Made by a program: the position numbers and the translations under genes. A stretch of DNA of 64,000 nucleotides from positions 32,001 through 96,000 of the IMG/VR virus record IMGVR_UViG_3300032268_000759; one strand, written 5' to 3'. Source of the DNA: an uncultured virus (IMG/VR IMGVR_UViG_3300032268_000759). Taxonomy: Duplodnaviria; Heunggongvirae; Uroviricota; Caudoviricetes. Numbering within the stretch: the stretch's first letter is position 1; every line of letters begins with the position of its first letter. Of this stretch, positions 21,119 to 49,152 are shown one piece after another. The notes below the pieces were generated by a model. That model saw nothing but the letters and a program-made list of their open reading frames with translations. It was not told the origin of the DNA and searched no databases.

Positions 21119-21670
21119 ATGAAAAAACAAATATTAAACGAAGAATTTCGTAGAATGAAAAAAATTGCAGGTTTAATCACTGAAAACGAAATTAGTGAAG
21201 AAACCCTAACTGAAAACAAATACAGAGCATCAGATTTTCCTGAAGTAACTGGATTTGAAGAAGATAATAATAGGATAATCATTACTTTTTCTGACAATAC
21301 TAAAGATTTAATTGAACCAAGAAATTTTGCTAATAAAGAAGTAGGATACTCTAAATTCCTTGAGTTATTAAATACTATGGATACTGATCCTAAAGCTAAA
21401 CAAGCAGTAAGTGATTTTTTAGAAATCAAAAGATTTAATGTAATTAGTACAAGTGACATTAATAAACTTTTAGCTGATAATGGTGTAGATGAAGAATATT
21501 ATGCAGGTATGGGTGGTAAAGAAATTGAAGGAGGAACAGAGGAATGGTTAGATATATTATCTGATATTACTGGTAAAGACGCTTATAGTGGAGAATTCAG
21601 TAAAAAAGATGATATGAAAATACAAACATTCATGAATCATCTAAGTCGTTTAGGTATTGAAGTAGTATAA
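21119..21670 (+). CDS. putative head-packaged protein
   Basis: Leader MKKQILNEEFRRMKKIAGLITE resembles scaffold C-terminus. Confidence 0.55.
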   Translation: MKKQILNEEFRRMKKIAGLITENEISEETLTENKYRASDFPEVTGFEEDNNRIIITFSDNTKDLIEPRNFANKEVGYSKFLELLNTMDTDPKAKQAVSDFLEIKRFNVISTSDINKLLADNGVDEEYYAGMGGKEIEGGTEEWLDILSDITGKDAYSGEFSKKDDMKIQTFMNHLSRLGIEVV

Positions 21671-21681
21671 AAAATATAAGT

Positions 21682-21716
21682 AAGCTTGGTTCGCCAAGCT
21701 TTCTTTATTATATTAC
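21682..21716 (+). promoter_or_regulatory. terminator hairpin overlapping Bacteroidota-type promoter
   Basis: AAGCTTGG-TTCG-CCAAGCTT 21682-21701 plus T-tract; CTTG 21685, N20, TATATTAC 21709. Confidence 0.7.
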
Positions 21717-21721
21717 TGCTA

Positions 21722-22645
21722 ATGGTAAACCAACTATTAGTTACATTAATAAATTCTGTACTTGGTACAGGTAAGTCAACATCAAGAGGTAATTATGCTT
21801 ATACTTGCCCGAGTTGCCACCACCATAAACCAAAACTAGAGATATGTTTAGATGAAACTAGTCCTGATTTTCAAAAATTTGGATGTTGGGTTTGTAAGGT
21901 TAAAGGTAAAAAACTAATTAATTTATTTAAATTAGTTGGAGCTCACTCAGATGTGATGTTAGAGCTTAAATCATTAGTTAAAAACGTCACACCCGTTGAA
22001 CAAAGACAACTTGAGGAAATTAAAGTTATATTACCTGAAGAGTTTAAATCTGTACTTAATTCTACAACATTATCATCAAAACAAGCTTTGTCATATCTAA
22101 AAGGACGAGGCATAACAGAAGATGATATTATTAAATATAATATAGGTTATTGTGAGTCAGGACTATATTCAAATATGATTATTATACCATCATATAATGA
22201 ATCTGGTTCTTTAAATTATTTTGTTGGTAGAAGTTTTATACATGACTCAGATAGAAAACTTAACCCAGATGTATCTAGAGATATAATACCATTTGAAATA
22301 TTCATTAACTGGAATTCACCTATAATATTATGTGAAGGAATGTTTGATGCTATAACAATTAAACGAAATGCTATACCATTATTAGGTAAAAATTTACAGT
22401 CAAAATTAATGAAAAAAATTGTTACTTCAACTGTAAAGAAAATATATATAGCATTAGATAAAGATGCTATAAAACAAGCACTTGATTTTTGTGAACAATT
22501 AATAAATGAAGGAAAAACAGTTTACTTAGTAGAATTAACAGATAAAGATCCAAATGAAATAGGTTTTAAACAATTTACAACACTAATCCAAAACACGTTC
22601 CCGTTAACCTATTCAGGACTGTTAGAAAAAAAATTATCATTATGA
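21722..22645 (+). CDS. DNA primase
   Basis: Zn finger CPSC..HH..CWVC; TOPRIM LCEGMFDA, ALDKDA, KDPNE; ATG at 21722. Confidence 0.9.
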   Translation: MVNQLLVTLINSVLGTGKSTSRGNYAYTCPSCHHHKPKLEICLDETSPDFQKFGCWVCKVKGKKLINLFKLVGAHSDVMLELKSLVKNVTPVEQRQLEEIKVILPEEFKSVLNSTTLSSKQALSYLKGRGITEDDIIKYNIGYCESGLYSNMIIIPSYNESGSLNYFVGRSFIHDSDRKLNPDVSRDIIPFEIFINWNSPIILCEGMFDAITIKRNAIPLLGKNLQSKLMKKIVTSTVKKIYIALDKDAIKQALDFCEQLINEGKTVYLVELTDKDPNEIGFKQFTTLIQNTFPLTYSGLLEKKLSL

Positions 22646-23409
22646 GTCAAATAAAACACTCTTACAATCGTATCTTAGAAATATCAGACGATCACAAACA
22701 AATCACATTGCCTGATTCAAGATATTATAGACGAAATGGAGAATATTATCCAAGTGTTACATATGTTTTAGGTTATTATCCAAAAGGTAAATTTTTTGAA
22801 GATTGGTTAAAAAAAGTTGGTTACTCAGCTGAACATATTGTTAAAAAAGCAGCTGATGAAGGTACTCAAGTTCATGAGATGATTGAGGAATATCTTGAAG
22901 GTAAAGAATTAAGTTATTTAAATCAACATGGTGCTCCATCAATGCATCCTGATGTTTGGGTAATGTTTTTAAAATTTGTTGAATTTTGGGAAACATATAA
23001 TCCAAAACTTATTGAAACTGAAGTACATTTATTTTCAGACGAGCTTAAAGTAGCTGGTACATGTGATATGATTTGTGAAATTGATGGTAAGTTATGGTTA
23101 ATAGATTTTAAAACATCAAATCATATCCAATTAACATATCAATTACAAACAGCAGTATATGGTCAATGTTACAAAGAATGTTATGGAAAAACTATTGATA
23201 ACTATGGTGTGTTATGGTTGAAATCATCTAAACGTAAACTTAATAAAGAAAAAATGTCTGGTAAAGGTTGGGAAATAGTAGCATCAGAACGTACTCATGA
23301 AGAAAATATTGAAATATTTAAAACTGTGAAACGTTTATTTGATTTAGAAAATCCAAACAGTTCACCAATATTTACTGAATTTAAAACAACTGCTAAACGA
23401 ACTTTATAG
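22642..23409 (+). CDS. PD-(D/E)xK exonuclease
   Basis: YPSVTYVL, GTQVH, E..AGTCD..IDFKTS, QTAVY. Confidence 0.85.
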   Translation: MSQIKHSYNRILEISDDHKQITLPDSRYYRRNGEYYPSVTYVLGYYPKGKFFEDWLKKVGYSAEHIVKKAADEGTQVHEMIEEYLEGKELSYLNQHGAPSMHPDVWVMFLKFVEFWETYNPKLIETEVHLFSDELKVAGTCDMICEIDGKLWLIDFKTSNHIQLTYQLQTAVYGQCYKECYGKTIDNYGVLWLKSSKRKLNKEKMSGKGWEIVASERTHEENIEIFKTVKRLFDLENPNSSPIFTEFKTTAKRTL

Positions 23410-23434
23410 TTCTAATTTTCATAAATATTTATAG

Positions 23435-23470
23435 GAGACTTGGCATCCCCAAGTCTCTTCATTATATTTA
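23435..23470 (+). promoter_or_regulatory. hairpin overlapping Bacteroidota-type promoter
   Basis: GAGACTTGG-CATCC-CCAAGTCTC; CTTG 23439, N20, TATATTTA 23463. Confidence 0.65.
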
Positions 23471-23475
23471 CATCG

Positions 23476-24300
23476 ATGATAAAACTTGTAGACCTATTAT
23501 TAGAAATATCCCAAAATAAAATGGTAGTCATGGCTGGTGGAGCTGGGGCAGGTAAATCGTATTTACTTAATAAAGTAAAATCTAAAGAACCAAACATAAA
23601 AATACTTAATCCTGATTCATATATTGAGGACAAAAATAGTCCAATGTATAATAACTTAACAAAAGCATCATCACAAATTGATGATGTGGATGTACCTAAT
23701 GCTATAAGTAGAGGTGAATCATTTATTTGGGACACAACAGCATCTAATGCTGCTAAAATGATTGGTGGTGAATATCGTCGTAAACAAGTAAAAGGAATAT
23801 TAAATACTGAAGGTTATGATGAGATGATGGTAATGGTTTATACACATCCTATAGTGTCATTTTTACGTAACTTTAAACGTGAACGTAAAGTACCTACAGT
23901 AGGTGTATTATCAACTTGGAATAATGTTTATGGTAATATAGACACATATAAGTCGAAATTAGGCGATAATTTTATATTGTATCAAGCGCCTGATAAAGAA
24001 TACGCTAAAGAAATACAGGCGTTTAACTCAGCGATTTCTAACGGAAAATTAAATGACTATTTCTCAAACTTGTTATCAACAGGTGAATATGCTTCAACAT
24101 TTAGAAAAGACAAACCTGAACCACAAACACCAGAAGAAATAGAAAAAGCTGAAAAAGCTAAAGAACAATCAAAAGCTTTAGTTAACACTCAGATTGATAG
24201 ACTTGAAAAAGAGTTTATGAATATTGAAAATAAAATCAAAGATTCTATCATAACTGATGAGAATGAAGTAGTAAACAGAATAGTTAACTTTATAAAATGA
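23476..24300 (+). CDS. P-loop kinase (zeta-toxin/AAA_33-like)
   Basis: MAGGAGAGKS, LNPD, IWDTT, RNFKRER; leader MIKLVDLLLE; ATG at 23476. Confidence 0.7.
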   Translation: MIKLVDLLLEISQNKMVVMAGGAGAGKSYLLNKVKSKEPNIKILNPDSYIEDKNSPMYNNLTKASSQIDDVDVPNAISRGESFIWDTTASNAAKMIGGEYRRKQVKGILNTEGYDEMMVMVYTHPIVSFLRNFKRERKVPTVGVLSTWNNVYGNIDTYKSKLGDNFILYQAPDKEYAKEIQAFNSAISNGKLNDYFSNLLSTGEYASTFRKDKPEPQTPEEIEKAEKAKEQSKALVNTQIDRLEKEFMNIENKIKDSIITDENEVVNRIVNFIK

Positions 24301-25757
24301 GTTTAGGTAAATACTTAGCAGAAATTATAATAGAACCAACTCCTAAAAAAGTGGCTTTATATCCTGGTGCTTTTAAACCACCACATAAAGGACATTTTGA
24401 GTTAGTTCAACGTCTATCTAAAGTATCAGATGAAGTATTAGTCATTATATCTCCTATAGCTCGTGATGGTATCACAGCTGAACAATCTTTAAGTGCTTGG
24501 AAATTATATTTACCATTTTTACCTAAAGCAAAAGTAGTAATATCAAATGTATCTTCTCCTGTATCATATGTTTATGATTATGTAAAATCAAATCCACAAC
24601 AAGATATTCAAGTAGCATTTGGTAAAGATGAAGGTGAAAGATATAAAGCCTTTTTAAACAAAGAAAAATATCCAAATGTAAAAGTTTATGATGCTGGTAA
24701 TATAGGAAGTTTAAGTGCATCTGGTTTACGTGCAGCTATAAAATCTAATAATCCAGTTGATATAGCTAAATTTTTACCACAAGGTATAGAAGTAAATGAT
24801 TTTTTAAATGCTTTAAAACTTAGTCCAAGAACTGAACCTACATTTAATAGTATAAATGAAAATATATCTGACCCAGATTTTACAAATGCATTAGCTAGTA
24901 TAACTAAACATTATGTTGATAATGGATACAATGTAAAACCATTACCTAAAGTAAAAATAATAAGTAATGATGAAGTAAACGCTTCTAATATGTTAGGTAA
25001 AACAGCATATTATGATCCAACAAATAAATCAATTACTTTATTTACAGCTGGGAGACATCCAAAAGATATATTACGCTCATTCTCACATGAGATGATACAT
25101 CATATACAAAACTTAGAAAATAGATTAAATAATATTACTACTACCAACACAACTGAAGATGATTATTTAAGCCAATTAGAACAAGAAGCTTACTTAAACG
25201 GTAATATGAATTTTAGGAATTGGGAGGATGGTATTAAAAATAAGGTTATGAACGAACAACAAACAACAAATAAATACCGTATATTCTGTGATATGGATGG
25301 TGTATTAGTAGACTTTGACAAAGGTTATGAAGATTTAACAGGTTTACATACCAAACATGTTGATGTGCAAGATAGTAATGAGTTTTGGAACAAATTTAGA
25401 GAAGGATTAAAAGAAAAAAACATAGGTGAATTAGAATATTGGTCTAGATTAGACTGGATGTCTGATGGAAAAGAATTATGGAACTATATTAAACAATATA
25501 ACCCATATGTGTTAACAGCTCCATCTCGTGATCCTCAATCAAGAGAAGGTAAACGAGCTTGGGCTGAACGTTTAGATAATATGAAAAATATTTATTTTAA
25601 AGCAGCAGCATTTAAATCTGAATATGCTGCTCCAAATCGAATACTTATTGATGATAGAGCAGATACCATTGAAAAATGGAATAAAAATGGAGGTATAGGT
25701 ATATTACATACATCTACATCTGATACAATTGAACAACTTAAAAAATTAGGACTATAA
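24297..25757 (+). CDS. fusion of HxGH nucleotidyltransferase, zincin-like peptidase and HAD 5'-nucleotidase
   Basis: YPGAFKPPHKGH; RSFSHEMIHH..EQEAY; FCDMDGVLVDF..LIDD. Confidence 0.8.
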   Translation: MSLGKYLAEIIIEPTPKKVALYPGAFKPPHKGHFELVQRLSKVSDEVLVIISPIARDGITAEQSLSAWKLYLPFLPKAKVVISNVSSPVSYVYDYVKSNPQQDIQVAFGKDEGERYKAFLNKEKYPNVKVYDAGNIGSLSASGLRAAIKSNNPVDIAKFLPQGIEVNDFLNALKLSPRTEPTFNSINENISDPDFTNALASITKHYVDNGYNVKPLPKVKIISNDEVNASNMLGKTAYYDPTNKSITLFTAGRHPKDILRSFSHEMIHHIQNLENRLNNITTTNTTEDDYLSQLEQEAYLNGNMNFRNWEDGIKNKVMNEQQTTNKYRIFCDMDGVLVDFDKGYEDLTGLHTKHVDVQDSNEFWNKFREGLKEKNIGELEYWSRLDWMSDGKELWNYIKQYNPYVLTAPSRDPQSREGKRAWAERLDNMKNIYFKAAAFKSEYAAPNRILIDDRADTIEKWNKNGGIGILHTSTSDTIEQLKKLGL

Positions 25758-26164
25758 TGATAAAAAGATTAGTAACAGACTCACCAGAAACATTAAACAT
25801 ATTAGTGAATAATGTTAAAACTTTATTTACTAAAAAAGATAGTACAGGTAAACCATACAAGTACTCAACTAAAATTTCAACTGAAAAACGCAAATTTCAA
25901 AATCCAGATACTAAACAAATTGAAGAAAAGGATATTGAAGTACTAACTATCACTGATGTTGAAAGTAAAGATGTGGTAACAGTTAAAATGATACCACTTA
26001 TTAAACCAGGAGAAATGCGTTTTGAAATTGGTGGAGAAGGTGAAACTACAGTTGGATCTAAAATAAAAGATACAGTTATAGGTAAAGGTCAATGGAAAGA
26101 TTATTCTAAAGATACTTTAAAAACTAAGTTAACTGAAAATATTGTAAAAAAATTAAAACAATAA
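25757..26164 (+). CDS. hypothetical protein
   Basis: Coupled ORF. Confidence 0.55.
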   Translation: MIKRLVTDSPETLNILVNNVKTLFTKKDSTGKPYKYSTKISTEKRKFQNPDTKQIEEKDIEVLTITDVESKDVVTVKMIPLIKPGEMRFEIGGEGETTVGSKIKDTVIGKGQWKDYSKDTLKTKLTENIVKKLKQ

Positions 26165-26721: not shown

Positions 26722-26758
26722 TTTTCCTATGTTTCACCTAATAAATTAAATATGGATA

Positions 26759-26980
26759 GTGATAAACAAGCAACAAAAGACGAACCTCGAAGTATTATCT
26801 CAAATATTATTAATGGTAGGAATGTTTTTCAATCCATTAGGTTTCGATATCCTTTTTTATTCAGTGATGAAACTCACGAATTCTTATTGGATTACAACAT
26901 CTCTTTTCTACCTGGCATCAGCGTCATGCTTTGGTGTTTATTACTTTTTGCGTAAAAAATTAAAGAATAATAAATCTTAA
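26759..26980 (+). CDS. small membrane protein
   Basis: Two hydrophobic segments and basic C-tail; GTG start. Confidence 0.5.
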   Translation: MINKQQKTNLEVLSQILLMVGMFFNPLGFDILFYSVMKLTNSYWITTSLFYLASASCFGVYYFLRKKLKNNKS

Positions 26981-27006: not shown

Positions 27007-27819
27007 ATGAACAATCAATTTAAAAGAATGCAAAAACTCGCTGGTCTAATTACTGAAGGTGAAGCTGCATACGAATATGAAAAAGGTAAAGAAGCTGGGG
27101 AAAAAGCTGAAAAGAAAAAAATGAAAAAATCTGAACTTAAAAAACAGATTAAAGAAATGATTTTAGCTGAGATAGATATTGATTTATCTAACACTGATAG
27201 TTTTTATGATTTCTTAGCTGAAGGAGAATTAACAGCTGATTCATTATATAAGATGTTTGAAAAAGAAGGTCTAATTGATGATAGACGTGAATATGATGAA
27301 GAAGATTTAATGGCTGCTTACCCTGGTTTATCTCAATCTGAAGCTGAAAAATTAGTAAATAAAATATCAGATGGGCTAAACGAAGCCAAGAAAAAGAAAA
27401 AAGATAAAGACAAAGAAGTTGAAGACGTTGAAATAGACACAGACGTTGATATGGGTGACAAAATGGATATGGGTGCCGAAATGAACACCACACCAGTTCC
27501 AGCAGCATCAGACGTTCAAAAAGAACTAATGGACGCGTTAGAAGCAGCTAAAGCATCAGGCGACGAAAAGTTAGTTCGTCAAATCGGAAATGCGTTAACA
27601 TACTTCACTCGTAGTCAAGTATCTAAAGACGAAAATCCACCATCAATGAATGAGGAAATAAGTATGGAAGCTATAGATAGACTAGAAGGTTTAGCTAATA
27701 TGCAAGATTTAGCTGTACTAAAAGCTAAACTTCGTATCTTATCTTCAGATTGGATGCAAGATGGATTTGAGAAAGAAGATATTATTGAATATATAACTGA
27801 ACTTATAAACCAAATATAA
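27007..27819 (+). CDS. putative head-packaged acidic protein
   Basis: QFKRMQKLAGLITE and MKKSELKKQIKE motifs. Confidence 0.55.
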   Translation: MNNQFKRMQKLAGLITEGEAAYEYEKGKEAGEKAEKKKMKKSELKKQIKEMILAEIDIDLSNTDSFYDFLAEGELTADSLYKMFEKEGLIDDRREYDEEDLMAAYPGLSQSEAEKLVNKISDGLNEAKKKKKDKDKEVEDVEIDTDVDMGDKMDMGAEMNTTPVPAASDVQKELMDALEAAKASGDEKLVRQIGNALTYFTRSQVSKDENPPSMNEEISMEAIDRLEGLANMQDLAVLKAKLRILSSDWMQDGFEKEDIIEYITELINQI

Positions 27820-27824
27820 ACAAA

Positions 27825-34843: not shown

Positions 34844-35235
34844 AACTATCAGATTTAAGAAAATTAATTAAAGAAGAATTAACTAATATAACTGGAATGC
34901 CAGTTGAAGAAGTAGCTCACAAATTAGAAAAAGATGAGTTAGGTAAATTCTATGTGGTAACAAAACCCACAGATATGAAAGATGAGAATATGATTGAAAC
35001 TAATATTCTTGAATTTGCTAAGAAAATTAAATCAGGTGAAATAGATGAAGCTCGAATCATGGGTGTATATGAAAAATCAGGTTCAGCTAAAACTAGAGCT
35101 AAAGAATTAATGAAAGAAATTGAAGATGAATTAAACGAACTTCAATTAACTATGGATGAATATAGAACTAAAAAATCAGAAATAGAAGAGAAAAAAGCAA
35201 AAGCAGCAGAAATTATTAAAAAATATAAAAAATAA
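34840..35235 (+). CDS. putative head-packaged protein
   Basis: Leader MKLSDLRKLIKEEL. Confidence 0.5.
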   Translation: MKLSDLRKLIKEELTNITGMPVEEVAHKLEKDELGKFYVVTKPTDMKDENMIETNILEFAKKIKSGEIDEARIMGVYEKSGSAKTRAKELMKEIEDELNELQLTMDEYRTKKSEIEEKKAKAAEIIKKYKK

Positions 35236-36569
35236 TGAAATTAACTGATATATATAAAGCTATTAAGGAAAAAATGAGTGAAGAAGATATTCTTGCTACA
35301 TTAAAAAAACAATTAGATCCTAAAAGTACAGTTAAAGTAAATAAACCTGTAGTTAAGCCAAATATTATCTATACTGATAAAGCAAATGAAGAAGTAGCTG
35401 AAGCCTATAGACAATACAATGAAGAAGCTGTTGATCTTGATAAGGAAATAATTGACAATACTACTGGAAGACCAATTGTAACATATATCCTTCCAAAAAA
35501 TGGTGATGGTTCATATAATGTTATTTATAATGATGCTACTACAGGTGTGATATATGTAAGTAATGATGCTTGGGATGAAATTAATAATTTAAATCAACCA
35601 AATATGAATGAAGATGAGACAGAAGAATTATCTGAAGCATATGTCCCTGATAATATTAAGAAGTTTGCAAAACAAAAAGGTGCTAGCTCATTAGTAAACA
35701 AAATAGCAGGTTGGGCTGAAAAAGCTGGCAAAGGTATTCGTGGTGGAACAGCAATTGGAAAAAATTATAGTACTCTTATTTTAGATTTATCATATCAAGA
35801 CGGAGCTATTCGTATTAATCTTGATGACTATACAATTGAATTATATGGTGAAGAAGTTAACAGCTTTAATGAATTCAAATCAGTTTTAGCAAAAGAACCA
35901 ATGGATAAAATGGATATGAATGAAGAATTCACACGTATACAAAAATTAGCAGGTGTAATCACAGAAAGTCAATATAAAGAAAAATTAAATGAAATAACTA
36001 TGAAAAAACAAATTTTAAATGAAGAATTCAAACGCATGCAAAAACTAGCAGGCATTATTAATGAAAATCAAATCAATGAAGTTGAAGTAGATAAAGAAAA
36101 ACTAATGCCTATATTTGATGAAGTATTTAATGATAAAATACAAGACTATTCATCACTAGTAGGTACAGATCCTATTTATGATGGTTTAAATAATGTGATC
36201 AAAGATCCAAGTGTTAAACAAGCAATATTTGATTGGGCTTATTTAATAACAACTGAGGATGAAGATGACGAAGAAGAAGTAATAGATATGTTTGGAGGTT
36301 ATGTTAGTGATGGTGTTGATTATAAAATCATGAAAACTTTTACCCCTCAATTAGCTAAAAACTTAATAAAAGCAGGATTTACTTATGATAAAGATGAGGA
36401 TATATGGACTATCCCTCAACCATACTTAGATAAAATAGATAGTTCATTTAACTACTCAGATGGCGCTACATCTTATGGTATTATTTGGGATGTTTGGGGT
36501 GTAGATTATGATACAAGTCCTAGAGAAAATATAGGCTCTTATTTAGAAGACGCTGCCCAAGAATTATAA
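35235..36569 (+). CDS. putative head-packaged polyprotein
   Basis: Two internal EEFxRxQKLAG motifs at 35916 and 36000. Confidence 0.55.
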   Translation: MKLTDIYKAIKEKMSEEDILATLKKQLDPKSTVKVNKPVVKPNIIYTDKANEEVAEAYRQYNEEAVDLDKEIIDNTTGRPIVTYILPKNGDGSYNVIYNDATTGVIYVSNDAWDEINNLNQPNMNEDETEELSEAYVPDNIKKFAKQKGASSLVNKIAGWAEKAGKGIRGGTAIGKNYSTLILDLSYQDGAIRINLDDYTIELYGEEVNSFNEFKSVLAKEPMDKMDMNEEFTRIQKLAGVITESQYKEKLNEITMKKQILNEEFKRMQKLAGIINENQINEVEVDKEKLMPIFDEVFNDKIQDYSSLVGTDPIYDGLNNVIKDPSVKQAIFDWAYLITTEDEDDEEEVIDMFGGYVSDGVDYKIMKTFTPQLAKNLIKAGFTYDKDEDIWTIPQPYLDKIDSSFNYSDGATSYGIIWDVWGVDYDTSPRENIGSYLEDAAQEL

Positions 36570-40223: not shown

Positions 40224-40772
40224 ATGAAGATTAAAATTGAATATATTATTATAGTCCTACTTGTAGCAGCTTTGCTGCTACAATGGACTTGTTCTGGTTC
40301 TAAAGTAGAAGGTGTTACCACAACAACAACAGAAATTAAGTGGGACACTATTAAAACTGAAGTACCTAAATATGTTCCTCGGTGGAGTACACGCACTGAA
40401 ATAGATATCGACACCTTCACCACACCAATAGATACTCTCGCTATACTTACAGATTATTACGCTATATATGGTTATTCTGATACTGTAGGTACTGATAGTG
40501 TTCAAATAGTAATACATGATACAGTGTCAACAAATAAAATAGTTTCACGTAGTATAAAATACAATATTATGTATCCTACTATTACTATTACAAAAGAAAC
40601 AGTTATAAACAAACCACAGTTCTTTTATGGCATTGGTTTAGGTACTAAATCAATAGGTCCAGAAGTGTTATATAAATCAAAAAAGAACCATGCATATGGA
40701 TTAGGTATAGGTGTAAACAGTGATTTACAACCTAACTTTTCCTTCAGAATGTATTGGTCAATAGGTAAATGA
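40224..40772 (+). CDS. envelope protein, spanin candidate
   Basis: N-terminal TM + Cys, Thr-rich region, C-terminal amphipathic beta strands. Confidence 0.45.
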   Translation: MKIKIEYIIIVLLVAALLLQWTCSGSKVEGVTTTTTEIKWDTIKTEVPKYVPRWSTRTEIDIDTFTTPIDTLAILTDYYAIYGYSDTVGTDSVQIVIHDTVSTNKIVSRSIKYNIMYPTITITKETVINKPQFFYGIGLGTKSIGPEVLYKSKKNHAYGLGIGVNSDLQPNFSFRMYWSIGK

Positions 40773-42346
40773 GTCAAGATATAAAACAAATCATCAGGCA
40801 AGAATACCTGAATTGTGCCAGTGACCCTGCACATTTCATGCGTAAATATTGTAATATACAGCATCCACAACGTGGTCGTGTTATATTTAATTTATACCCA
40901 TTTCAAGGTAAGGTATTAAATCTATGGAAAGAAAATCCATACTCTATTATCTTAAAATCAAGACAGTTAGGTATTTCTACTTTAGCTGCAGGATATTCTT
41001 TATGGTTAATGTTATTCCATAAAGATAAAAACGTATTATGTTTAGCTACAAAACAAGAAACAGCTAAAAATATGGTTACAAAGGTAAAGTTTATGTATGA
41101 AAACTTACCTTCATGGTTAAAAGTAACAGCTGAAGAAAATAATAAATTAACACTTAGATTAACTAATGGCTCCCAAATTAAAGCAGTATCGGCAGCAGGT
41201 GATGCAGGTCGTTCAGAAGCTGTATCATTACTTATTGTTGATGAGGCAGCATTTATTGATAATATAGGTGAGATTTGGGCTTCTGCTCAACAAACCTTAG
41301 CAACTGGTGGTGGTGCAATAGTATTATCTACTCCATATGGTACAGGTAATTGGTTTCATCAAACTTGGGTTAAAGCTGAATCTAATGAAAATCAATTTCT
41401 TCCTATTAAATTACCATGGTATGTACATCCTGAACGTAATGAAGAATGGAGAAAAATGCAAGATGAGTTATTAGGTGATCCTAGATTAGCAGCGCAAGAA
41501 TGTGATTGTGATTTTAGTACATCTGGTGATGTTGTATTTTATCCTGAGTTTATAGAATTTTATGACCAAACATATATCCAAGAACCACTTGAAAGAAGAG
41601 GAGTAGATAAAAATTTATGGGTATGGGAACCGGCTGATTGGGGTCGTTCATATATGGTTGTAGCTGACGTTGCTAGAGGTGACTCAAAAGATTACTCAGC
41701 ATTCCATGTGATTGATATAGAATCTAATACACAAGTAGCAGAATATAAAGGTCAATTAAGTACAACTGAATTTGGACATTTACTAGTAGGTATAGCTACT
41801 GAATATGCTGAGGCATTATTGGTAGTAGAAAATGCAAACATAGGTTGGTCAACATTACAAACAATATTGGAACGAGGATACAGAAATCTATATTTTTCAT
41901 CTAAAAGTGATAAAGCAGATTCTTCTACGTATTTTGATAAGTATGCAGATAATAGTAATATGACAGCTGGATTTACAAATTCATTAAAAACCAGACCAAT
42001 GGTGATTAATAAATTTAGAGAATATGTAAGTGAAAAAAGTATTATTATTAGATCAAGACGTTTACTTGAAGAAATGAAAGTGTTCATTTGGAAAAATGGT
42101 AGAGCAGAAGCTCAATCAGGCTATAATGATGATTTGGTTATGAGTATGGGTATTGGAATGTATGTTCGTGATACTGCATTAAGATTTAATCAAAATAGTG
42201 TAGATTTAACTAAAGCTGTAATAAATAACTTTACAAAATCAACATTCAACGCTGGGGCATATTCAAGTAATACCTCATATTCTCCAACAGCAGATTGGAA
42301 TATGGATGTGAACGGACAAAAAGAAGACATTAAATGGTTACTATAA
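40769..42346 (+). CDS. terL: terminase large subunit (gp17-like)
   Basis: KSRQLGIST Walker A, IVDEAAF Walker B, LSTPYG, ADVARG..DYS, NDDLVM. Confidence 0.95.
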   Translation: MSQDIKQIIRQEYLNCASDPAHFMRKYCNIQHPQRGRVIFNLYPFQGKVLNLWKENPYSIILKSRQLGISTLAAGYSLWLMLFHKDKNVLCLATKQETAKNMVTKVKFMYENLPSWLKVTAEENNKLTLRLTNGSQIKAVSAAGDAGRSEAVSLLIVDEAAFIDNIGEIWASAQQTLATGGGAIVLSTPYGTGNWFHQTWVKAESNENQFLPIKLPWYVHPERNEEWRKMQDELLGDPRLAAQECDCDFSTSGDVVFYPEFIEFYDQTYIQEPLERRGVDKNLWVWEPADWGRSYMVVADVARGDSKDYSAFHVIDIESNTQVAEYKGQLSTTEFGHLLVGIATEYAEALLVVENANIGWSTLQTILERGYRNLYFSSKSDKADSSTYFDKYADNSNMTAGFTNSLKTRPMVINKFREYVSEKSIIIRSRRLLEEMKVFIWKNGRAEAQSGYNDDLVMSMGIGMYVRDTALRFNQNSVDLTKAVINNFTKSTFNAGAYSSNTSYSPTADWNMDVNGQKEDIKWLL

Positions 42347-42359: not shown

Positions 42360-44240
42360 ATGGCAGATACCAACATATTTAATAGATTAAGACGATTATT
42401 TTCAACAGATGTTATCATTAGAAACACTGGAGGAAACGAATTACGAGTAGTGGATGTGAACGCTATTCAAAAATCAGGTGAAATAGAAACTAACTCATTA
42501 TTAGATAGATTCAATAGGATATATACAACAAGTCCTACCTCACTATATGGTTACCAACAAAACTTTAACTACCAAACACTACGTACTCAGTTATATTCAG
42601 AGTATGATGTTATGGATGGTGATGCTATTATTGCTTCAGCATTAGATATTATAGCAGATGAATCTACACTTAAAAATGAACAAGGTGAAGTACTTCATAT
42701 TAGATCAAGTGATGAAGATGTTCAAAAAATACTATATAATTTATTCTATGATGTATTAAATATAGAATTTAATTTATGGTCATGGATTCGCCAAATGTGT
42801 AAATATGGTGATTTCTTCTTAAAATTAGAAATAGCAGAAAAGTTTGGTGTATATAATGTTATACCATACTCTGCTTATCATATTGAAAGACAAGAACTAT
42901 ATGACCGTGAAAATCCATCATCAGTAAGATTTAGATTTGATCCAGAAGGTTTATCAGCGGGTGATTATGGTTACTATAACATGCCTGGTTCAAACCAAGG
43001 TAATTCTATTTATTTTGATAACTATGAAATAGCACATTTTCGCCTAATATCAGATACCAACTTTTTACCATATGGTAGAAGTTATATTGAGCCAGCTCGT
43101 AAGTTATTTAAACAATATGCATTAATGGAAGACGCGATGTTAATTCATCGTATTGTTCGCGCTCCTGAAAAACGTGTATTTTATATTAATGTAGGTGGAA
43201 TTGCACCAGCAGAAGTTGAAGCGTTCATGCAAAAAACTGTTAATACCATGAAACGTACTCCATATATGGATCCTAAAACTGGTGATTATAACTTAAAATA
43301 TAACATGCAAAACATGTTAGAAGATTTTTATATTCCAGTTCGTGGTAATGATCAAGCAACAAAAATTGATACTACTAAAGGATTAGATTATGATGGTATT
43401 AAAGACGTTGAATATTTACGTGATAAATTATTTGCTGCTTTAAAAGTACCAAAAGCGTTTATGGGTTATGAAAAAGACTTAACTGGTAAAGCAACTTTAG
43501 CAGCAGAGGATATTAGATTTGCTCGTACAATTGAGCGTATTCAACGTATCATATTATCAGAATTATATAAAATAGGATTAGTACATTTATATACTCAAGG
43601 TTATACTGAAGAGTCATTAACTAACTTTGAATTAAACTTAACAACTCCATCAATCATATATGATCAAGAACGTATTGCATTAATGAAAGAAAAAGTTGAA
43701 TTAGCTAATACTATAATGGAAGCACAATTATTACCATCAGATTGGGTTTATGATAATATATTCCACTTTAGTGATGATCAATATTCAGAATATAGAGATT
43801 TAATTCGTGAAGATGCTAAACGTAACTTTAGATTAACACAGATTAAAGAAGAAGGTAATGATCCATTAGAAACAGGTAAATCATATGGTACACCACACGA
43901 TTTAGCTTATTTATATGGTAATACTAAAACTCACGGGACTGTACCTGATGGGTATGATGAAAAAACACCACTAGGTCGTCCTAAAGAAAAAGCAAGTAGT
44001 ATAAACACACAAGACAATCCATTAGGAAGAGATAGATTAGGTGTTAATGATATGAAAGTTGATGACCAACCAACAGCAGGCCGTACAGCATTTAAAGGAG
44101 GATCAGCATTAGCTTTAGAAAATAACAAAACTGAATTTCATAAAAATAAAATTGTGTTAGAAGGTTTAAAAAAGAAATTAGTATTTGAAAATGATAAGGC
44201 AGCAGGTACATATCTAGATGAAAATCTACTTAAAGATTAA
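42360..44240 (+). CDS. portal protein (gp20-like)
   Basis: LMEDAMLIHRIVRAPEKRVFYINVG; EDFYIPVRG; LFAALKVP. Confidence 0.95.
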   Translation: MADTNIFNRLRRLFSTDVIIRNTGGNELRVVDVNAIQKSGEIETNSLLDRFNRIYTTSPTSLYGYQQNFNYQTLRTQLYSEYDVMDGDAIIASALDIIADESTLKNEQGEVLHIRSSDEDVQKILYNLFYDVLNIEFNLWSWIRQMCKYGDFFLKLEIAEKFGVYNVIPYSAYHIERQELYDRENPSSVRFRFDPEGLSAGDYGYYNMPGSNQGNSIYFDNYEIAHFRLISDTNFLPYGRSYIEPARKLFKQYALMEDAMLIHRIVRAPEKRVFYINVGGIAPAEVEAFMQKTVNTMKRTPYMDPKTGDYNLKYNMQNMLEDFYIPVRGNDQATKIDTTKGLDYDGIKDVEYLRDKLFAALKVPKAFMGYEKDLTGKATLAAEDIRFARTIERIQRIILSELYKIGLVHLYTQGYTEESLTNFELNLTTPSIIYDQERIALMKEKVELANTIMEAQLLPSDWVYDNIFHFSDDQYSEYRDLIREDAKRNFRLTQIKEEGNDPLETGKSYGTPHDLAYLYGNTKTHGTVPDGYDEKTPLGRPKEKASSINTQDNPLGRDRLGVNDMKVDDQPTAGRTAFKGGSALALENNKTEFHKNKIVLEGLKKKLVFENDKAAGTYLDENLLKD

Positions 44241-44277
44241 TATTTTTTATATATTTATAACAAAACTTACTTATTAA

Positions 44278-45135
44278 ATGAGTATTATCAAACATAATAA
44301 ATTCAAAAACTCAGGTATATTATTTGAATTGTTAGTTAGACAAATAACTAATGATACATTATCTGGGAAAGAATCTCCGGCTATTGATATTCTTAAAAAT
44401 AGCTTTGTTAAGTCAGAGTTAGGAAAAGAATATAAATTATATGAGACATTATTTAAGCAAACACAAATCAGCGAAACTAAAGCTAATATTATCATTGAAG
44501 AAGTATTAAAAGCATCTAAAAAACTTAATAGATCATCATTAAAAAGAGATAAATATAATCTAATTAATGAGATTAAAAAACATTATGATTTAGAAGAATT
44601 TTTTAAACATAAACTACCTAATTATAAATCTCAAGCTGCTCTATATACATTGATTGAAGTATATAATAATCAAGAAACAGTAAATCCTAATCAAGTTATA
44701 TCTAATAAAATTACATTATTAGAATCATTAACTAAACTCCCAGTTAAAGAAAAAGAGATTAGAGAAGATGTATTAAATGAATTTAAAACTTATGATAAAG
44801 ATTTACGTTTATTAACATACCAGGTATTATTAGAAAAATTTAATAATAAATATGGTTCATTAAATGATAATCAAAAATTAATATTACGTGAATTTATAAA
44901 TGCTGTTGATAATCCATCACGCTTAAAAGATTTCTACAACCAAAAAATAGTTGAAGTTAAAACTCAATTAACTAAGTCAATAGAAAAAATTAATGATAAA
45001 GTAACTCAGATTAAATTAACTGAAGTGTTATCATTAATTAATGAAGTAGATAAAACCTCTAAAGTGTCTAATGATGATGTAATTAATTTATTACAATATT
45101 ATTCATTAGTTGAAGAATTAAAGGCAGTAAAATAA
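44278..45135 (+). CDS. head-module hypothetical protein
   Basis: Helical ORF directly after portal. Confidence 0.6.
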   Translation: MSIIKHNKFKNSGILFELLVRQITNDTLSGKESPAIDILKNSFVKSELGKEYKLYETLFKQTQISETKANIIIEEVLKASKKLNRSSLKRDKYNLINEIKKHYDLEEFFKHKLPNYKSQAALYTLIEVYNNQETVNPNQVISNKITLLESLTKLPVKEKEIREDVLNEFKTYDKDLRLLTYQVLLEKFNNKYGSLNDNQKLILREFINAVDNPSRLKDFYNQKIVEVKTQLTKSIEKINDKVTQIKLTEVLSLINEVDKTSKVSNDDVINLLQYYSLVEELKAVK

Positions 45136-45767
45136 TGGATAGACTAAAAAACGCAGTTAAAAAGGTATTAAAAGAAATGTCTATGACTGGTGGTGGAACA
45201 GCAGGTGCTGCTTTCTCTCCTGGTGTAGGTATGAATTATGCTACTCCTAAAGCATTTAAAAAGAAAAAACTTAAAGAGGTTAGTGGCTATAAAGGAATTG
45301 ATGGCTCATTTGATACAGCTCTTCAATGGATTTGGTTTTTTGGTGGTAAAGAATTACTACAAAATAAATTAGAAATTTATAGTACAAGCCAAAACTACTT
45401 TAGATTTAAAAAAGCTATGGAAAATGGTAAAATTACTATCCAAGACTTAGATAAAGCTACAAAAGGAGAACATGGACAAACCGGTGGTATACCTTTTTCA
45501 CAAACAGCAGTTTGGACACAAGATATAAAACCATACTTAGATAGAGTTAAACAAGATAAAATTAATGATTTAAATATTGATTTAGAAGAAACTAAAACTC
45601 CATACGGTACAGGTAACTTAGGCCCAGGCCCAAAAGCAACAGAACAAGGTGTTAAAGATAATTACTATGTTAAAGCATTTGGTTTTAAACTTGTTGACAG
45701 AAAAAAATTAGCAAAAGCATCTAAAACAATAGATTATAAAGATCTATGGGGTGCTACATATAAATAA
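45135..45767 (+). CDS. putative prohead core/cargo protein
   Basis: Leader ending VLKE; modules bounded by LKE/LEE. Confidence 0.5.
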   Translation: MDRLKNAVKKVLKEMSMTGGGTAGAAFSPGVGMNYATPKAFKKKKLKEVSGYKGIDGSFDTALQWIWFFGGKELLQNKLEIYSTSQNYFRFKKAMENGKITIQDLDKATKGEHGQTGGIPFSQTAVWTQDIKPYLDRVKQDKINDLNIDLEETKTPYGTGNLGPGPKATEQGVKDNYYVKAFGFKLVDRKKLAKASKTIDYKDLWGATYK

Positions 45768-45792
45768 TATTTATTGATATAATATAAAAACA

Positions 45793-47241
45793 ATGACACT
45801 TCAAGAACAATACAATCTAATTAAAGAAGGTAAAGGTGCTAAAGATGTATTTACAAAACATGCTAAAGCTTTATTTCCTCATTTAATTCCAAATCATTTT
45901 GGATTTGATAATACATCTCAAATCTTAACTCAACGTGGAATAATCTCAGAAAATCTTTGGGGTATAGCTACAGGTAATAATCAACAACCAGACTGGTTTA
46001 AAATATTTAATGAAGCTCAAGAAACTAATGTTAAAGCTGATGAAAAGAAACCATCTAAAGAAGTAGATGTATATAAAGATAAGTCATATCATAATCAATA
46101 TGAAGCTGAAACTGGTGATGATGTAATATTTGATCAATATCTAAGAGGTATTCAATTAGAAACAACTAATCCTAAAAATGCAGATAAAACTGTTGATGAA
46201 CTTAAAAAAATGGTATTAAAAAATCTTAAAAAAGATAAATTATACTACACTAAAAATGCTGCCTTTGGAATTGAAGGTATTGGCTACACAGATGAAGCAC
46301 CAGGTTTAGGTAAAACTAAAGAAGTAAAAGGTAAATATGCTTCATCGGGTATGGAACCAGTTAAAATAAAGGAATCATATGATTATGAAACACAAGCTGA
46401 TTTGACAGCAATGGCTAAAGATAGCGATATGTTGAAAGATGATCCTAAAGTAAAAAAAGCTGCGGAATTTATAGGAATGAATGCATCTGATGTTGATATG
46501 ATTGGTATATTAACAAACGCATATGTTAAAAAATATAATATTACTGACTCAGATCTAATATCTCATATAATAGATCAAGCATATAATATTTTTAAATCTA
46601 GATTTTCAAAAACAAATGAAGGTATTGGAATGTTTATGGATCCTATAGGATACGATAAAGGTTCTAAATCTCAAATGGAAAAAGCTCGTGATATATTAAA
46701 AGACGCAGGATTATCTAAGGAAGAAATAGAAACATTTATTAGTAATAATATGTTTAAAAAAGGAAGATTAGATGATTTAGCTCAAGAATTTATCAAAAGT
46801 AATTTAGAAGAATCAGAATTACGTTCAATACTTCGTCAAATTATTAAAGAAGAACTTAACTTAAAAGAAATTGATCAAATTGGTGAAGAAGCTTCAAAAA
46901 TGGCTAAAATTAAAAAAGTTAGTGATGAGATAACTAAACGTAAGAAAAAACTTAAAGCGTTAGAAACCTTAAAAGAACTTGAAGATGACTCAATCAACCC
47001 AGGTAAAATAAAAGAACTATATGGTGACGTTAAGAAACTGGAGAAGATGAAAGAAAAACTTGAGAAAAAAGGTAAGAAAAAAGAAAAAACAGAATTAGTT
47101 GATGAAGTAGTGGTGGTGAGTGATAAAACAACTCCTGAAGAAGTATCTTCAATAGTTAAAACAGGTGATACAACCATGGATGCTATAAAAGCTGCTGTAA
47201 TGCAAGCTAAAAAAACAAAACAACCAGTAACCGTATCATAA
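45793..47241 (+). CDS. putative prohead core/cargo protein
   Basis: Many [LI]xE sites; internal SELRSILRQIIKEE. Confidence 0.5.
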   Translation: MTLQEQYNLIKEGKGAKDVFTKHAKALFPHLIPNHFGFDNTSQILTQRGIISENLWGIATGNNQQPDWFKIFNEAQETNVKADEKKPSKEVDVYKDKSYHNQYEAETGDDVIFDQYLRGIQLETTNPKNADKTVDELKKMVLKNLKKDKLYYTKNAAFGIEGIGYTDEAPGLGKTKEVKGKYASSGMEPVKIKESYDYETQADLTAMAKDSDMLKDDPKVKKAAEFIGMNASDVDMIGILTNAYVKKYNITDSDLISHIIDQAYNIFKSRFSKTNEGIGMFMDPIGYDKGSKSQMEKARDILKDAGLSKEEIETFISNNMFKKGRLDDLAQEFIKSNLEESELRSILRQIIKEELNLKEIDQIGEEASKMAKIKKVSDEITKRKKKLKALETLKELEDDSINPGKIKELYGDVKKLEKMKEKLEKKGKKKEKTELVDEVVVVSDKTTPEEVSSIVKTGDTTMDAIKAAVMQAKKTKQPVTVS

Positions 47242-47242
47242 A

Positions 47243-47857
47243 ATGAAGCAGGTATTAATAGAAACCCAATTATTTCAAATATCTCCTAAACAATTAAGTG
47301 AAGGAGTTAAATCAACATCAGGTAATCCTATTGTTGAAGGAATATTAGCTACAGCTGAAGTAAAAAACGGTAATGGACGCTATTATAAAAGAGAATTATG
47401 GGAACGTGAAATAGACAAATACCTATCTAGTGTTAAAGAAAATAGAGCACTTGGTGAATTAGACCACCCAGAATCATCGATAATCAACCTTAAAAACGTG
47501 TCTCATAATATTAGAGGCTTATGGTGGGATGGTGATAAGGTAATGGGTAAAATCGAAATACTTCCAACTCCTTCAGGTAACATATTAAAAGCATTAATTG
47601 AAAACAACATTACTGTAGGTGTTTCATCACGTGGTATGGGTAGTTTAAAACAATTAGGTGAAACAATGGAAGTACAAGATGACTTTGAATTGTTATGCTG
47701 GGATTTTGTTTCAACTCCATCAAATCCAGGTTCATGGATGAAACCAATTAATGGAATGATGAATGAAGGATTAATATCAACATTAAATCCATATGCTAAA
47801 GTAAATTCTGTTATTACAGAAATATTATGTGCTAATGGATCTTGTCCAATATTTTAA
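47243..47857 (+). CDS. prohead protease (T4 gp21-like)
   Basis: KNGNGRYY, LGELDHP, VSH, GVSSRGMGS, DFVSTPS. Confidence 0.95.
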   Translation: MKQVLIETQLFQISPKQLSEGVKSTSGNPIVEGILATAEVKNGNGRYYKRELWEREIDKYLSSVKENRALGELDHPESSIINLKNVSHNIRGLWWDGDKVMGKIEILPTPSGNILKALIENNITVGVSSRGMGSLKQLGETMEVQDDFELLCWDFVSTPSNPGSWMKPINGMMNEGLISTLNPYAKVNSVITEILCANGSCPIF

Positions 47858-47885
47858 CCACTCTATCAATAGTATTGTTAGACAG

Positions 47886-47918
47886 ATGCCTCCTCTAAAA
47901 AAGGAGGCATTTCTTTTG
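47886..47918 (+). terminator. Rho-independent terminator
   Basis: ATGCCTCCT-loop-AGGAGGCAT followed by TTCTTTT. Confidence 0.8.
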
Positions 47919-48054
47919 TGTTTTTAAGCTCTTCATATATATGTATATGTGAATATGCCGTTCCTATTCCACTTATACGGTATCAATTTCAAATATAATC
48001 CCATTGCGCTACAGTAATTAAGCGTATTTCCAAAAAACAATTTAGGACAAAATT

Positions 48055-49152
48055 ATGACAAACAGAGATTTGTTAAAAGAGGCTATTGCCGATGCTAAAG
48101 CTATCAAGGATACTGCTATAGCAAACGCTAAATCTGCTTTAGAAGAATCTTTTACACCTCATTTGAAGTCTATGTTAGCTGCTAAAATCAATGAAATGGA
48201 CAACTTCTATGAAGAAGATGATACCATGGAAGAAGTAGAAACAGACTTAAATGAAATGAAAGATGAAGATGAAATGGATGAAGTAAAAAAAGAAACTTAT
48301 TCAGAAGCAACCGAAGAAATGGATGAAGAAATCAATTTAGACGAATTGCTAGCTGAGTTAGAATTAGAAGAAACTGTAACTGAAGCTAAAGAAGAAATGG
48401 AAGCTGAAGAAACAGAAGAAGAAGGTGAAGAAGAAGAAGGTGAAGAAGAAATTGATCTTGAAAACATGTCAGAAGAAGATTTGAAAAACTTTATTGAAAA
48501 CGTAATTGAAGATATGATCACAGATGGCGAAATTGAAGCTGGTGATGGTATGGAAGGCGAAGAAGAAGTTGAAGATGAAACTGAAGAAGAAATCAATATT
48601 GATGAAATCTTAGCTGAACTAAAAAGTGAAAAAGTTGAAGAAGAAATGAGTGCTGTAATGGGTGCTTCTGCAACTGCTGGATTAGCTGAACTAGCTAAAA
48701 TGTTTAAAAAAGGGCTTATTTCTCTTAATGACTTTTTAGAAAAAGTAGCAGCTGCATCAGCTCCAGGCTTTTCTAAAGGTATGAATGAAGAAGAAAAAAT
48801 GAAAGACGAGTTAAAAGAAGCATATGCAGTAGTAAAAACTTTACACTCAGAACTTAATGAAATCAATTTATTAAACGCTAAATTACTTTACACTAATAAG
48901 ATTTTCAAATCGAAAAACTTAACTGAAACTCAGAAAGTAAAAGTATTAACAGCATTTGATAAAGCTACTTCTAAAAAAGAAGCACAATTAGTTTATGAAA
49001 CTTTATTAGGAGGATTAAAATCAGAAACTAAATCTCCAATTAAAGAAAATTTAGGTAGAGCATCTAAATCAGCAGGTGTTTCCGTTAAAAATCCTATTGT
49101 AGAATCAAATGAAATGGTCAATAGATTCCAAAAATTAGCTGGTATTATTTAA
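48055..49152 (+). CDS. prohead scaffold/core protein (gp22-like)
   Basis: Very acidic coiled coil between protease and capsid genes; ends RFQKLAGII. Confidence 0.8.
   Translation: MTNRDLLKEAIADAKAIKDTAIANAKSALEESFTPHLKSMLAAKINEMDNFYEEDDTMEEVETDLNEMKDEDEMDEVKKETYSEATEEMDEEINLDELLAELELEETVTEAKEEMEAEETEEEGEEEEGEEEIDLENMSEEDLKNFIENVIEDMITDGEIEAGDGMEGEEEVEDETEEEINIDEILAELKSEKVEEEMSAVMGASATAGLAELAKMFKKGLISLNDFLEKVAAASAPGFSKGMNEEEKMKDELKEAYAVVKTLHSELNEINLLNAKLLYTNKIFKSKNLTETQKVKVLTAFDKATSKKEAQLVYETLLGGLKSETKSPIKENLGRASKSAGVSVKNPIVESNEMVNRFQKLAGII

What the first reader, a model, noticed from the sequence alone, without database searches (positions are those of the whole stretch)
21119..49152. Scaffold C-terminal tail reused as a capsid-docking tag on cargo proteins
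Seen: the scaffold ends NEMVNRFQKLAGII* (49108-49152). Closely similar peptides occur in otherwise unrelated accessory proteins: EEFRRMKKIAGLITE (in 21119), QFKRMQKLAGLITE (in 27007), EEFTRIQKLAGVITE (from 35916) and EEFKRMQKLAGIINE (from 36000). Each cargo copy is followed at once by an I-x-E site. Established: scaffold C-terminal peptides bind the coat protein in P22 and herpesviruses, and T4 gp21 cuts after Glu in [LI]-x-E. Inference: these proteins mimic the scaffold tail to dock on the inner capsid wall, and the protease then frees the payload. This would be a portable loading peptide analogous to encapsulin cargo peptides.
Basis: partly seen in the sequence, partly recalled or inferred. 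Interest (0 to 1): 0.88.

Follow-up and report, generated by a model that had tools for sequence, protein, structure and literature searches.

The report
Scaffold-tail address tag on phage cargo
In this T4-like phage, three otherwise unrelated proteins carry a short clip-off peptide that copies the conserved last residues of the head-scaffolding protein; it is most likely the address label that loads them into the capsid, and related uncultured phages put it on many unrelated protein families, but no experiment has tested this.

Summary
The window comes from a 154.8-kb, 30% GC T4-like phage genome. It holds five in-frame copies of one roughly 14-residue motif, N-E-x-F-x-R-M-Q-K-L-A-G-[LIV]-I. 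Two are N-terminal leaders (ORFs 21119 and 27007). Two lie in tandem inside ORF 35235. One forms the last residues of the gp22-position scaffold. Shuffled controls never reach these scores, and the copies differ at synonymous sites.

The pairing is conserved. All 24 scaffold homologues whose tail I read end in a variant of the motif, always just after an invariant P-I-x-E protease-type site. IMG/VR holds at least 118 stretches carrying the leader. Their 98 mature parts fall into 67 sequence clusters. In six whole or nearly whole genomes scanned without that bias, 17 of 19 non-terminal copies are followed at once by I-[TN]-E.

My best reading is a protease-removable prohead-targeting tag that copies the scaffold's docking tail. 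It is a new variant of the phage T4 capsid-targeting-sequence principle. The receptor (capsid wall or scaffold core), the packaging and the cleavage are all untested. The cargo domains have no known family or fold.

This scan has already noted the same phenomenon on other genomes (e1-5705091, e1-5750153, e1-5740886).

The parts
48055..49152 (+). Head scaffolding protein (gp22 position), 365 aa, acidic middle region
   Evidence: Lies between the S77 protease and the Gp23-family capsid gene. It has no Pfam or PHROG hit of its own. Homologues sit in the same position in 13 IMG/VR loci.
49093..49104 (+). P-I-V-E site directly before the scaffold tail (predicted protease cut after Glu350)
   Evidence: P347, I348 and E350 are invariant in 12 scaffolds. 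The site fits the T4 gp21 rule L/I-x-E (PMC9026906).
49105..49149 (+). Scaffold C-terminal tail, 15 aa, containing R-F-Q-K-L-A-G-I-I
   Evidence: R357, L361, A362 and G363 are invariant. All 24 scaffold tails read carry a variant of it.
21119..21184 (+). N-terminal tag of ORF 21119 (22 aa, ends I-T-E)
   Evidence: 17.5 bits. AlphaFold2 gives a helix at residues 3-17 and then a disordered linker at 23-34.
21119..21670 (+). Cargo protein 1 (183 aa): tag, N-module, and a widespread C-module of about 75 aa
   Evidence: 62 relatives among 1.84 billion representative proteins, most of them carrying the same tag. The domain at residues 40-183 folds with confidence, but no PDB match reaches E<=0.001.
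27007..27057 (+). N-terminal tag of ORF 27007 (17 aa, ends I-T-E)
   Evidence: 32.7 bits. F5, M8, Q9, K10, A12, G13, I15, T16 and E17 are invariant in 12 family members.
27007..27819 (+). Cargo protein 2 (270 aa), a modular acidic protein
   Evidence: Member of the largest leader-bearing cluster, 12 of 98.
35235..36569 (+). Cargo protein 3 (444 aa): two folded domains joined by two tandem tags
   Evidence: AlphaFold2 gives confident domains at 133-222 and 285-444, with the two tag helices between them. The C-terminal half is a stand-alone tagged gene in L064 and L102.
35919..35966 (+). Internal tag copy a (ends I-T-E)
   Evidence: 26.2 bits.
36000..36065 (+). Internal tag copy b. It starts with Met-Lys-Lys-Gln-Ile-Leu like ORF 21119 and ends I-N-E.
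   Evidence: 31.2 bits.
47243..47857 (+). Prohead protease, the presumed enzyme that removes the tag
   Evidence: Pfam Peptidase_S77, 1e-30; PHROG 207, 2e-56.
49180..50859 (+). Major capsid protein, a candidate receptor of the tail and tag
   Evidence: Pfam Gp23, 3e-77. The receptor role is inference only.

Best explanation
The motif is a removable prohead-targeting tag. The scaffold protein of this T4-like clade ends in a short amphipathic helix followed by G-I-I(-K). This tail sits just after an invariant P-I-x-E site. By analogy with other tailed phages, it is the handle that ties the scaffold to its partner in the assembling head. Cargo proteins carry a copy of that handle. Most carry it at the N-terminus. 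Some carry it between domains and a few at the C-terminus. They are therefore taken into the prohead through the scaffold's own docking site. When the S77 protease is activated it cuts after the Glu of I-T-E. In the scaffold and in internal copies it also cuts after the Glu just upstream of the motif. This frees the mature cargo inside the head and detaches the scaffold. Shown: the shared motif, its conservation, its positions, the flanking sites, the protease gene, and the restriction to phage contigs of this clade. Inferred: packaging, cleavage, and the receptor. For the receptor I estimate capsid protein about 0.45, scaffold core about 0.35 and other about 0.2.
For: Five specific copies lie in the genome, and shuffles never reach their scores. 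Synonymous differences between copies show selection on the peptide. All 24 scaffold tails read carry the motif, with P-I-x-E invariant just before it. IMG/VR holds at least 118 stretches: 100 unique N-terminal leaders, 22 internal copies (mostly preceded by L-N-E) and 7 C-terminal copies. The 98 mature parts fall into 67 clusters, so the tag is portable. In six whole or near-whole genomes, scanned without that bias, 17 of 19 non-terminal copies run into I-[TN]-E. Leader genes often lie beside the protease-scaffold-capsid module. Every leader-bearing record that is at least 63% complete has the scaffold. In 596 Gb of prokaryote genomes the full motif occurs once, on a phage contig that also carries the scaffold tail. 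The protease is S77, and T4 gp21 cuts after L/I-x-E. T4's N-terminal propeptides target proteins to the core and are then removed (PMC9026906). There is a precedent for copying a scaffold tail: in phage 80alpha the scaffold's helix-and-hook tail binds the capsid protein, and SaPI1 CpmB copies that tail (PMC5644958).
Against: There is no experimental datum. Only Immutovirus phages among 50,697 cultured phage records carry the leader, and I found no virion proteomics for them. Tail and leader do not co-vary strictly. Some genomes have a drifted tail (R-M-R-E-L-A-F-G-N-N-K) but canonical leaders, although the DNA pattern used to find those leaders forced the canonical form. One N-terminal copy lacks the cut site (G016). 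In this genome the cargo genes lie 12 to 28 kb from the head module, among genes that look metabolic. Microcystis phage Mel-JY01 has the tail but no leader copy, so the reuse is specific to certain lineages. In T4 the targeting sequence is described as binding the core and not the shell.
Confidence: 0.6

Rival explanations
1. The tag and tail do not touch the capsid wall. The helix is a scaffold-scaffold (core) contact, and tagged proteins co-polymerise with the scaffold core, as described for the T4 targeting sequence.
For: T4 reviews say the propeptides give affinity for the core, and that the localisation mechanism is unknown (PMC9026906; PMC9958956). The ORF 27007 family itself looks scaffold-like, being acidic and modular.
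Against: In the systems with solved structures (80alpha, with P22 cited there), the scaffold C-terminus binds the capsid protein (PMC5644958). Nothing here distinguishes the two receptors.
Confidence: 0.22
2. The motif is a docking site (exosite) for the prohead protease. It marks substrates for cutting and does not address them to the head.
For: Every copy lies next to an [LI]-x-E site. The scaffold is the protease's main substrate.
Against: The major capsid protein is also expected to be cut but lacks the motif. C-terminal copies and one uncleavable N-terminal copy exist. Substrates must still get inside the head.
Confidence: 0.08
3. The peptide is a generic helical module or a mobile N-terminal cassette spread by recombination among small phage genes. 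It has a role unrelated to head assembly, and the scaffold match is a by-product.
For: The cargo proteins are mosaics of shuffled modules. No cargo function is known.
Against: The match to the invariant scaffold tail, the adjacent protease sites, the synonymous divergence and the restriction to this T4-like clade are hard to explain this way.
Confidence: 0.07

Closest known systems
Capsid targeting sequence (CTS) of phage T4 internal proteins IPI-III and Alt (Mullaney & Black 1996; PMC9026906, PMC9958956)
   Same: A short N-terminal propeptide on diverse non-essential head proteins. It ends in L/I-x-E and is removed by an S77 gp21-type protease. It is portable to foreign proteins.
   Different: The sequence is different and longer (17-22 aa, against about 10 aa for M-K-T-Y-Q-E-F-I-A-E; PMC8442874). 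Here it equals the scaffold's C-terminal tail, which is not the case in T4, where gp22 ends ...Y-A-K-V-A-S-R-F. It also occurs internally and at C-termini. It has not been tested experimentally.
Phage 80alpha scaffold tail and SaPI1 CpmB (PMC5644958)
   Same: The last 16 or so residues form an amphipathic helix plus a short hook ending in I-I-K-like residues. A second protein copies the tail and binds the same site.
   Different: In 80alpha the copy is made by a satellite to change capsid size, not to load cargo. There is no sequence homology, and no protease site brackets the copy in that system.
Herpesvirus protease and scaffold sharing one C-terminal tail, released at the maturation site (established knowledge, from memory)
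   Same: A scaffold tail carries a non-scaffold protein into the procapsid. A protease cut next to the tail releases it. This is comparable to the invariant P-I-x-E before the tail here.
   Different: In herpesviruses the sharing comes from nested in-frame genes, with a single cargo (the protease). Here the tail is copied onto many separate genes, mostly at the opposite terminus.
Encapsulin cargo-loading peptides and the HK97 protease C-terminal targeting domain (Duda et al. 2013, cited in PMC7411985)
   Same: A short terminal peptide addresses cargo to the inside of an HK97-fold shell.
   Different: Encapsulin peptides are not removed and do not copy a scaffold. The HK97 domain is on one protein only.

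Membership tests
T4-type capsid-targeting propeptide system | Genome encodes a gp21-type (S77) prohead protease | tested here: met
   Pfam PF03420, 1e-30; PHROG 207, 2e-56
T4-type capsid-targeting propeptide system | Short N-terminal leader shared by otherwise unrelated proteins and ending in L/I-x-E | tested here: met
   In the unbiased scan, 17 of 19 non-terminal copies are followed by I-[TN]-E.
T4-type capsid-targeting propeptide system | Sequence likeness to the T4 CTS (M-K-T-Y-Q-E-F-I-A-E) | tested here: not met
   The motif is different and the leader is longer (the CTS sequence is from PMC8442874).
T4-type capsid-targeting propeptide system | Tagged proteins are found in heads with the leader removed | not testable with these tools
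   No virion proteomics was found for any phage with the tag.
gp22-type head scaffold | Gene lies between the prohead protease and the Gp23-family capsid gene; the protein is acidic and helical | tested here: met
   The same order is seen in relatives and in T4.
gp22-type head scaffold | Sequence-family match to T4 gp22 | tested here: inconclusive
   No Pfam or PHROG hit. Only weak likeness at the ends to T4 gp22, judged by eye.
Helix-and-hook scaffold tail (80alpha type) | C-terminal amphipathic helix plus hook that binds the capsid protein N-arm | not testable with these tools
   The helix-then-Gly-then-I-I(K) layout is visible in the sequence. No sequence match to any PDB chain. Binding was not established.
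Encapsulin cargo-loading peptide | Non-viral encapsulin shell operon; the peptide is retained on the cargo | tested here: not met
   This is a complete T4-like phage genome with terminase, portal, protease and capsid genes, and a cleavage site adjoins the tag.

The most novel reading that the evidence does not exclude
The scaffold's C-terminal helix-and-hook is the general address of T4-type heads in this large aquatic clade. Any protein bearing a copy, at either end or between domains, occupies the scaffold's own receptor site on the capsid protein. One protease then releases scaffold and cargo alike by cutting next to the handle. That would give the first sequence-defined ligand for the core-shell contact. 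It would also give a rule for how T4-type heads choose their contents, which a 2023 T4 head review (PMC9958956) says 'remain mysterious'.
Probability: 0.35. Interest if true: 0.8.

Novelty: new variant of a known kind. Interest (0 to 1): 0.6.

Why it matters
T4's capsid targeting sequence has been used for thirty years to load foreign proteins into heads, yet its receptor and logic are unknown (PMC9958956). Here the tag is visibly the scaffold's own conserved tail, bracketed by protease sites. This turns the question into a simple, testable one: what does the tail bind? The tag also marks a large and fast-changing set of dark-matter proteins as probable packaged proteins, possibly injected ones, in a widespread aquatic phage clade. 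These are candidates for anti-defence or take-over functions. The tag also offers a second loading tag, different in sequence from the T4 CTS, for capsid engineering. One cultured member exists, Flavobacterium phage immuto, so bench tests are feasible.

Tried and rejected
1. Complex prediction of the capsid protein (alignment A2) with the first 40 residues of ORF 27007 (A1) scored 0.00, and the tool returned 'no answer'. It counts neither for nor against binding.

2. Cargo function:
- Pfam and PHROG found nothing for the three window cargo proteins.
- Nine large tagged proteins from relatives gave nothing above Pfam's own cut-offs.
- None of 115 tagged proteins in the 5.8-billion-protein set has a Pfam family.
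- The ESM Atlas gave no usable lead.
- AlphaFold2 models of ORF 21119 and ORF 35235 have confident domains, but Foldseek against the PDB gave no match at E<=0.001.

3. I tested the idea that the other leader class in this genome, and the T4 CTS, copy the scaffold's N-terminus. A profile of 15 scaffold N-termini finds only the scaffold itself in this genome (27.7 bits). The next hit, at 4.9 bits, is below shuffled noise of up to 7.7 bits. The idea is not supported here. Only the by-eye likeness between the T4 gp22 N-terminus and the T4 CTS remains.

4. I looked for the fused two-tag architecture of ORF 35235 elsewhere. Proteins of similar length, P0092 to P0095, turned out to be ORF 27007-family proteins. 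The homologue search shows only shared modules.

5. Searching the PDB with the tail sequence gave no hit.

6. The first census with ORF 21119's own atypical leader found only 6 proteins.

7. Chance and DNA-repeat explanations are rejected.

8. The sixth, weak hit, in a 713-aa ORF outside the window, is treated as chance (i-E 0.42).
Full report
WHAT IS THERE

The window is bases 32001-96000 of a 154,840-bp phage genome with 29.6% GC. The head module is T4-like:
- large terminase, 40769-42346
- portal, 42360-44240
- three unknown ORFs
- an S77 prohead protease, 47243-47857 (Pfam 1e-30)
- an acidic 365-aa protein in the gp22 scaffold position, 48055-49152
- a Gp23-family capsid protein, 49180-50859 (Pfam 3e-77)

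The nearest cultured phage is Flavobacterium phage vB_FspM_immuto, with about 71% nucleotide identity in the capsid gene.

CHECKING THE OBSERVATION

A six-frame search finds the core [KQR]-K-[LIVM]-A-G-[LIVM]-[LIVM] five times in the window.
- at the N-terminus of ORF 21119 (22-residue leader)
- at the N-terminus of ORF 27007 (17-residue leader)
- twice in tandem inside ORF 35235 (residues 229-244 and 256-277)
- as the last residues of the scaffold

The four non-terminal copies run directly into I-T-E or I-N-E.

A profile built only from copies in other phages scores the five at 15.4 to 32.7 bits. The next hit in the genome scores 7.7 bits. Twenty shuffles never exceeded 10.9 bits. The copies differ at synonymous positions, so the peptide is what is conserved and not the DNA.

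THE PAIRING IS CONSERVED AND WIDESPREAD

In phage immuto the scaffold is annotated 'DNA polymerase phi-like protein'. It ends in the motif, and two small ORFs, immuto26A_188 and immuto26A_41, begin with it.

Read in six frames, these give 129 unique copies:
- 100 N-terminal leaders, with Met-to-Glu lengths peaking at 17 and at 21-22 residues
- 22 internal copies, mostly preceded by L-N-E and therefore bracketed by two protease-type sites
- 7 C-terminal copies

The mature parts of 98 leader proteins fall into 67 BLAST clusters. The same leader is therefore attached to many unrelated or very distant domains.

About 20 of the loci also carry the protease. A partly overlapping 20 carry the scaffold and 12 carry the capsid gene. 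Leader genes often lie right beside this head module.

Every scaffold tail I could read ends in a variant of the motif: 13 in those loci, 10 more from long records, and Microcystis phage Mel-JY01. In a 12-row scaffold alignment R357, L361, A362 and G363 are invariant. So are P347, I348 and E350, which form a P-I-x-E site immediately before the tail.

Of 21 leader-bearing records of 40 kb or more, 12 have the scaffold. These 12 include every record that is at least 63% complete. The nine without it are fragments estimated at 23-61% complete.

UNBIASED CHECKS

The IMG/VR pattern forced 'T-E' after the motif, so I also scanned six whole or nearly whole genomes with the profile. Each has one to five tagged proteins besides the scaffold tail. 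Of 19 non-terminal copies, 17 are followed by I-[TN]-E.

Two records also have non-scaffold proteins that end in the tag. One 805-aa ORF has a leader-like start and a tag at its end.

The same DNA pattern in 596 Gb of prokaryote genomes gave 32 hits. Thirty-one are the bare nine residues inside unrelated proteins. The one full match lies on a 22.5-kb contig of a Flavobacteriaceae MAG that also carries a scaffold with the tail, so it is a phage contig.

Among 50,697 cultured phage records, only the four Immutovirus immuto records have the leader. Mel-JY01 has the tail but no leader copy. The tail is therefore the older and broader feature, and its reuse is specific to certain lineages.

T4 gp22 ends ...Y-A-K-V-A-S-R-F, which is only loosely alike.

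HOW IT MOST LIKELY WORKS

T4 gp21 cuts after Glu in L/I-x-E. T4 internal proteins carry propeptides of 10-19 residues that take them into the prohead core and are then removed. These propeptides can carry foreign proteins such as GFP (PMC9026906; PMC3012670). How proteins are localised to the core 'remain[s] mysterious' (PMC9958956).

The anatomy here is the same: an S77 protease, and a leader ending in I-T-E on diverse small proteins. The added clue is that the leader equals the scaffold's tail.

In phage 80alpha the last 16 scaffold residues form an amphipathic helix plus a hook. They bind the capsid protein's N-arm, and the satellite protein CpmB copies them to bind the same site (PMC5644958). 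The tail here has the same layout, with hydrophobic residues at F, M, L and then G-I-I(-K). AlphaFold2 models the leader of ORF 21119 as a low-confidence helix followed by a disordered linker and then a confidently folded domain.

I therefore read the motif as a docking handle. The scaffold uses it, cargo proteins copy it, and the protease cuts beside it in every context: after P-I-x-E in the scaffold, after I-T-E in leaders, and on both sides of internal copies.

The receptor, the packaging and the cleavage are all inferred.

THE CARGO

ORF 21119 is a tag, an N-module, and a C-module of about 75 residues. That C-module is found in 62 representative proteins, most of them tagged.

ORF 27007 belongs to a modular acidic family.

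ORF 35235 has two confident domains with both tags between them. Its C-terminal half is a separate tagged gene in other phages. A module at about residues 131-221 recurs in 704 proteins. ORF 35235 therefore looks like a fusion that the protease would split.

No family or fold could be assigned to any cargo protein.

WEAKNESSES

There is no experiment. Tail and leader do not co-vary strictly. The cargo genes lie far from the head module in this genome. The receptor could equally be the scaffold core. A test of whether the scaffold's N-terminus is copied as well was negative here.

PLACE AMONG KNOWN THINGS

This is a new variant of the T4 capsid-targeting principle. It has precedents for tail copying in 80alpha/SaPI1 and in herpesviruses. 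I found no paper that mentions the motif in phages. Earlier notes of this scan report the same phenomenon on other genomes. I repeated the key checks independently on this genome.

Noticed in passing
window 38746, 51641, 55470, 58895; genome-wide 12 sites on the + strand: A conserved upstream motif, A-T-A-T-T-T-A-T-A-A-T-A-A-A, precedes several ORFs of this genome. It lies 12-20 nt before the ATG of about a third of the IMG/VR leader genes. It is probably a phage promoter, perhaps a late one.
   Followed up: partly
window 27121-27174 (ORF 27007, residues about 39-56): The ORF 27007 family carries a second conserved internal peptide, K-M-x-K-S-E-L-K-x-x-I-K-E-M-I-L-A-E. It resembles the short M-K-x-S-E-L-K-x-I-I-K-E leaders noted elsewhere in this genome, and may be a second tag or cleavage class.
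   Followed up: partly
window 35625-35897 (ORF 35235, residues about 131-221): A module of about 90 residues is conserved at 60-89% identity in 704 proteins of 250-730 aa from large phage contigs. It folds confidently but matches no known structure. This is unusually strong conservation for a protein of unknown role.
   Followed up: partly
window 45793-47241: In about 20 related loci, the first 190 or so residues of the 482-aa ORF just upstream of the protease are conserved near the protease gene. In T4 this is the position of the core proteins gp67 and gp68.
   Followed up: no
L001:45626-46867 (MW353175.1, immuto26A_204): The scaffold of phage immuto is annotated 'DNA polymerase phi-like protein'. 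This is probably caused by its acidic low-complexity region.
   Followed up: yes
L155:2104-4518 (IMG/VR record G016): An 805-aa ORF starts with the tag but lacks a cut site (A-G-V-K-S), and it ends with a second copy of the tag as its C-terminus.
   Followed up: partly
L166 (CANGUP010000043.1, Flavobacteriaceae MAG): A 22.5-kb contig binned into a bacterial MAG carries both the scaffold tail and a tagged ORF. It is a phage contig, and may hint at the host.
   Followed up: partly
genome 102986-105127 (outside the window, about window 70986): A 713-aa ORF behind the promoter-like motif contains G-F-Q-K-L-A-G-V-V internally (7.7 bits, i-E 0.42). This is probably chance.
   Followed up: partly
L123:6118-6927 (T4 gene 22): The T4 gp22 N-terminus (M-L-K-E-Q-L-I-A-E) resembles the T4 CTS (M-K-T-Y-Q-E-F-I-A-E) by eye. 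The matching idea was not supported by a profile test in this genome.
   Followed up: partly
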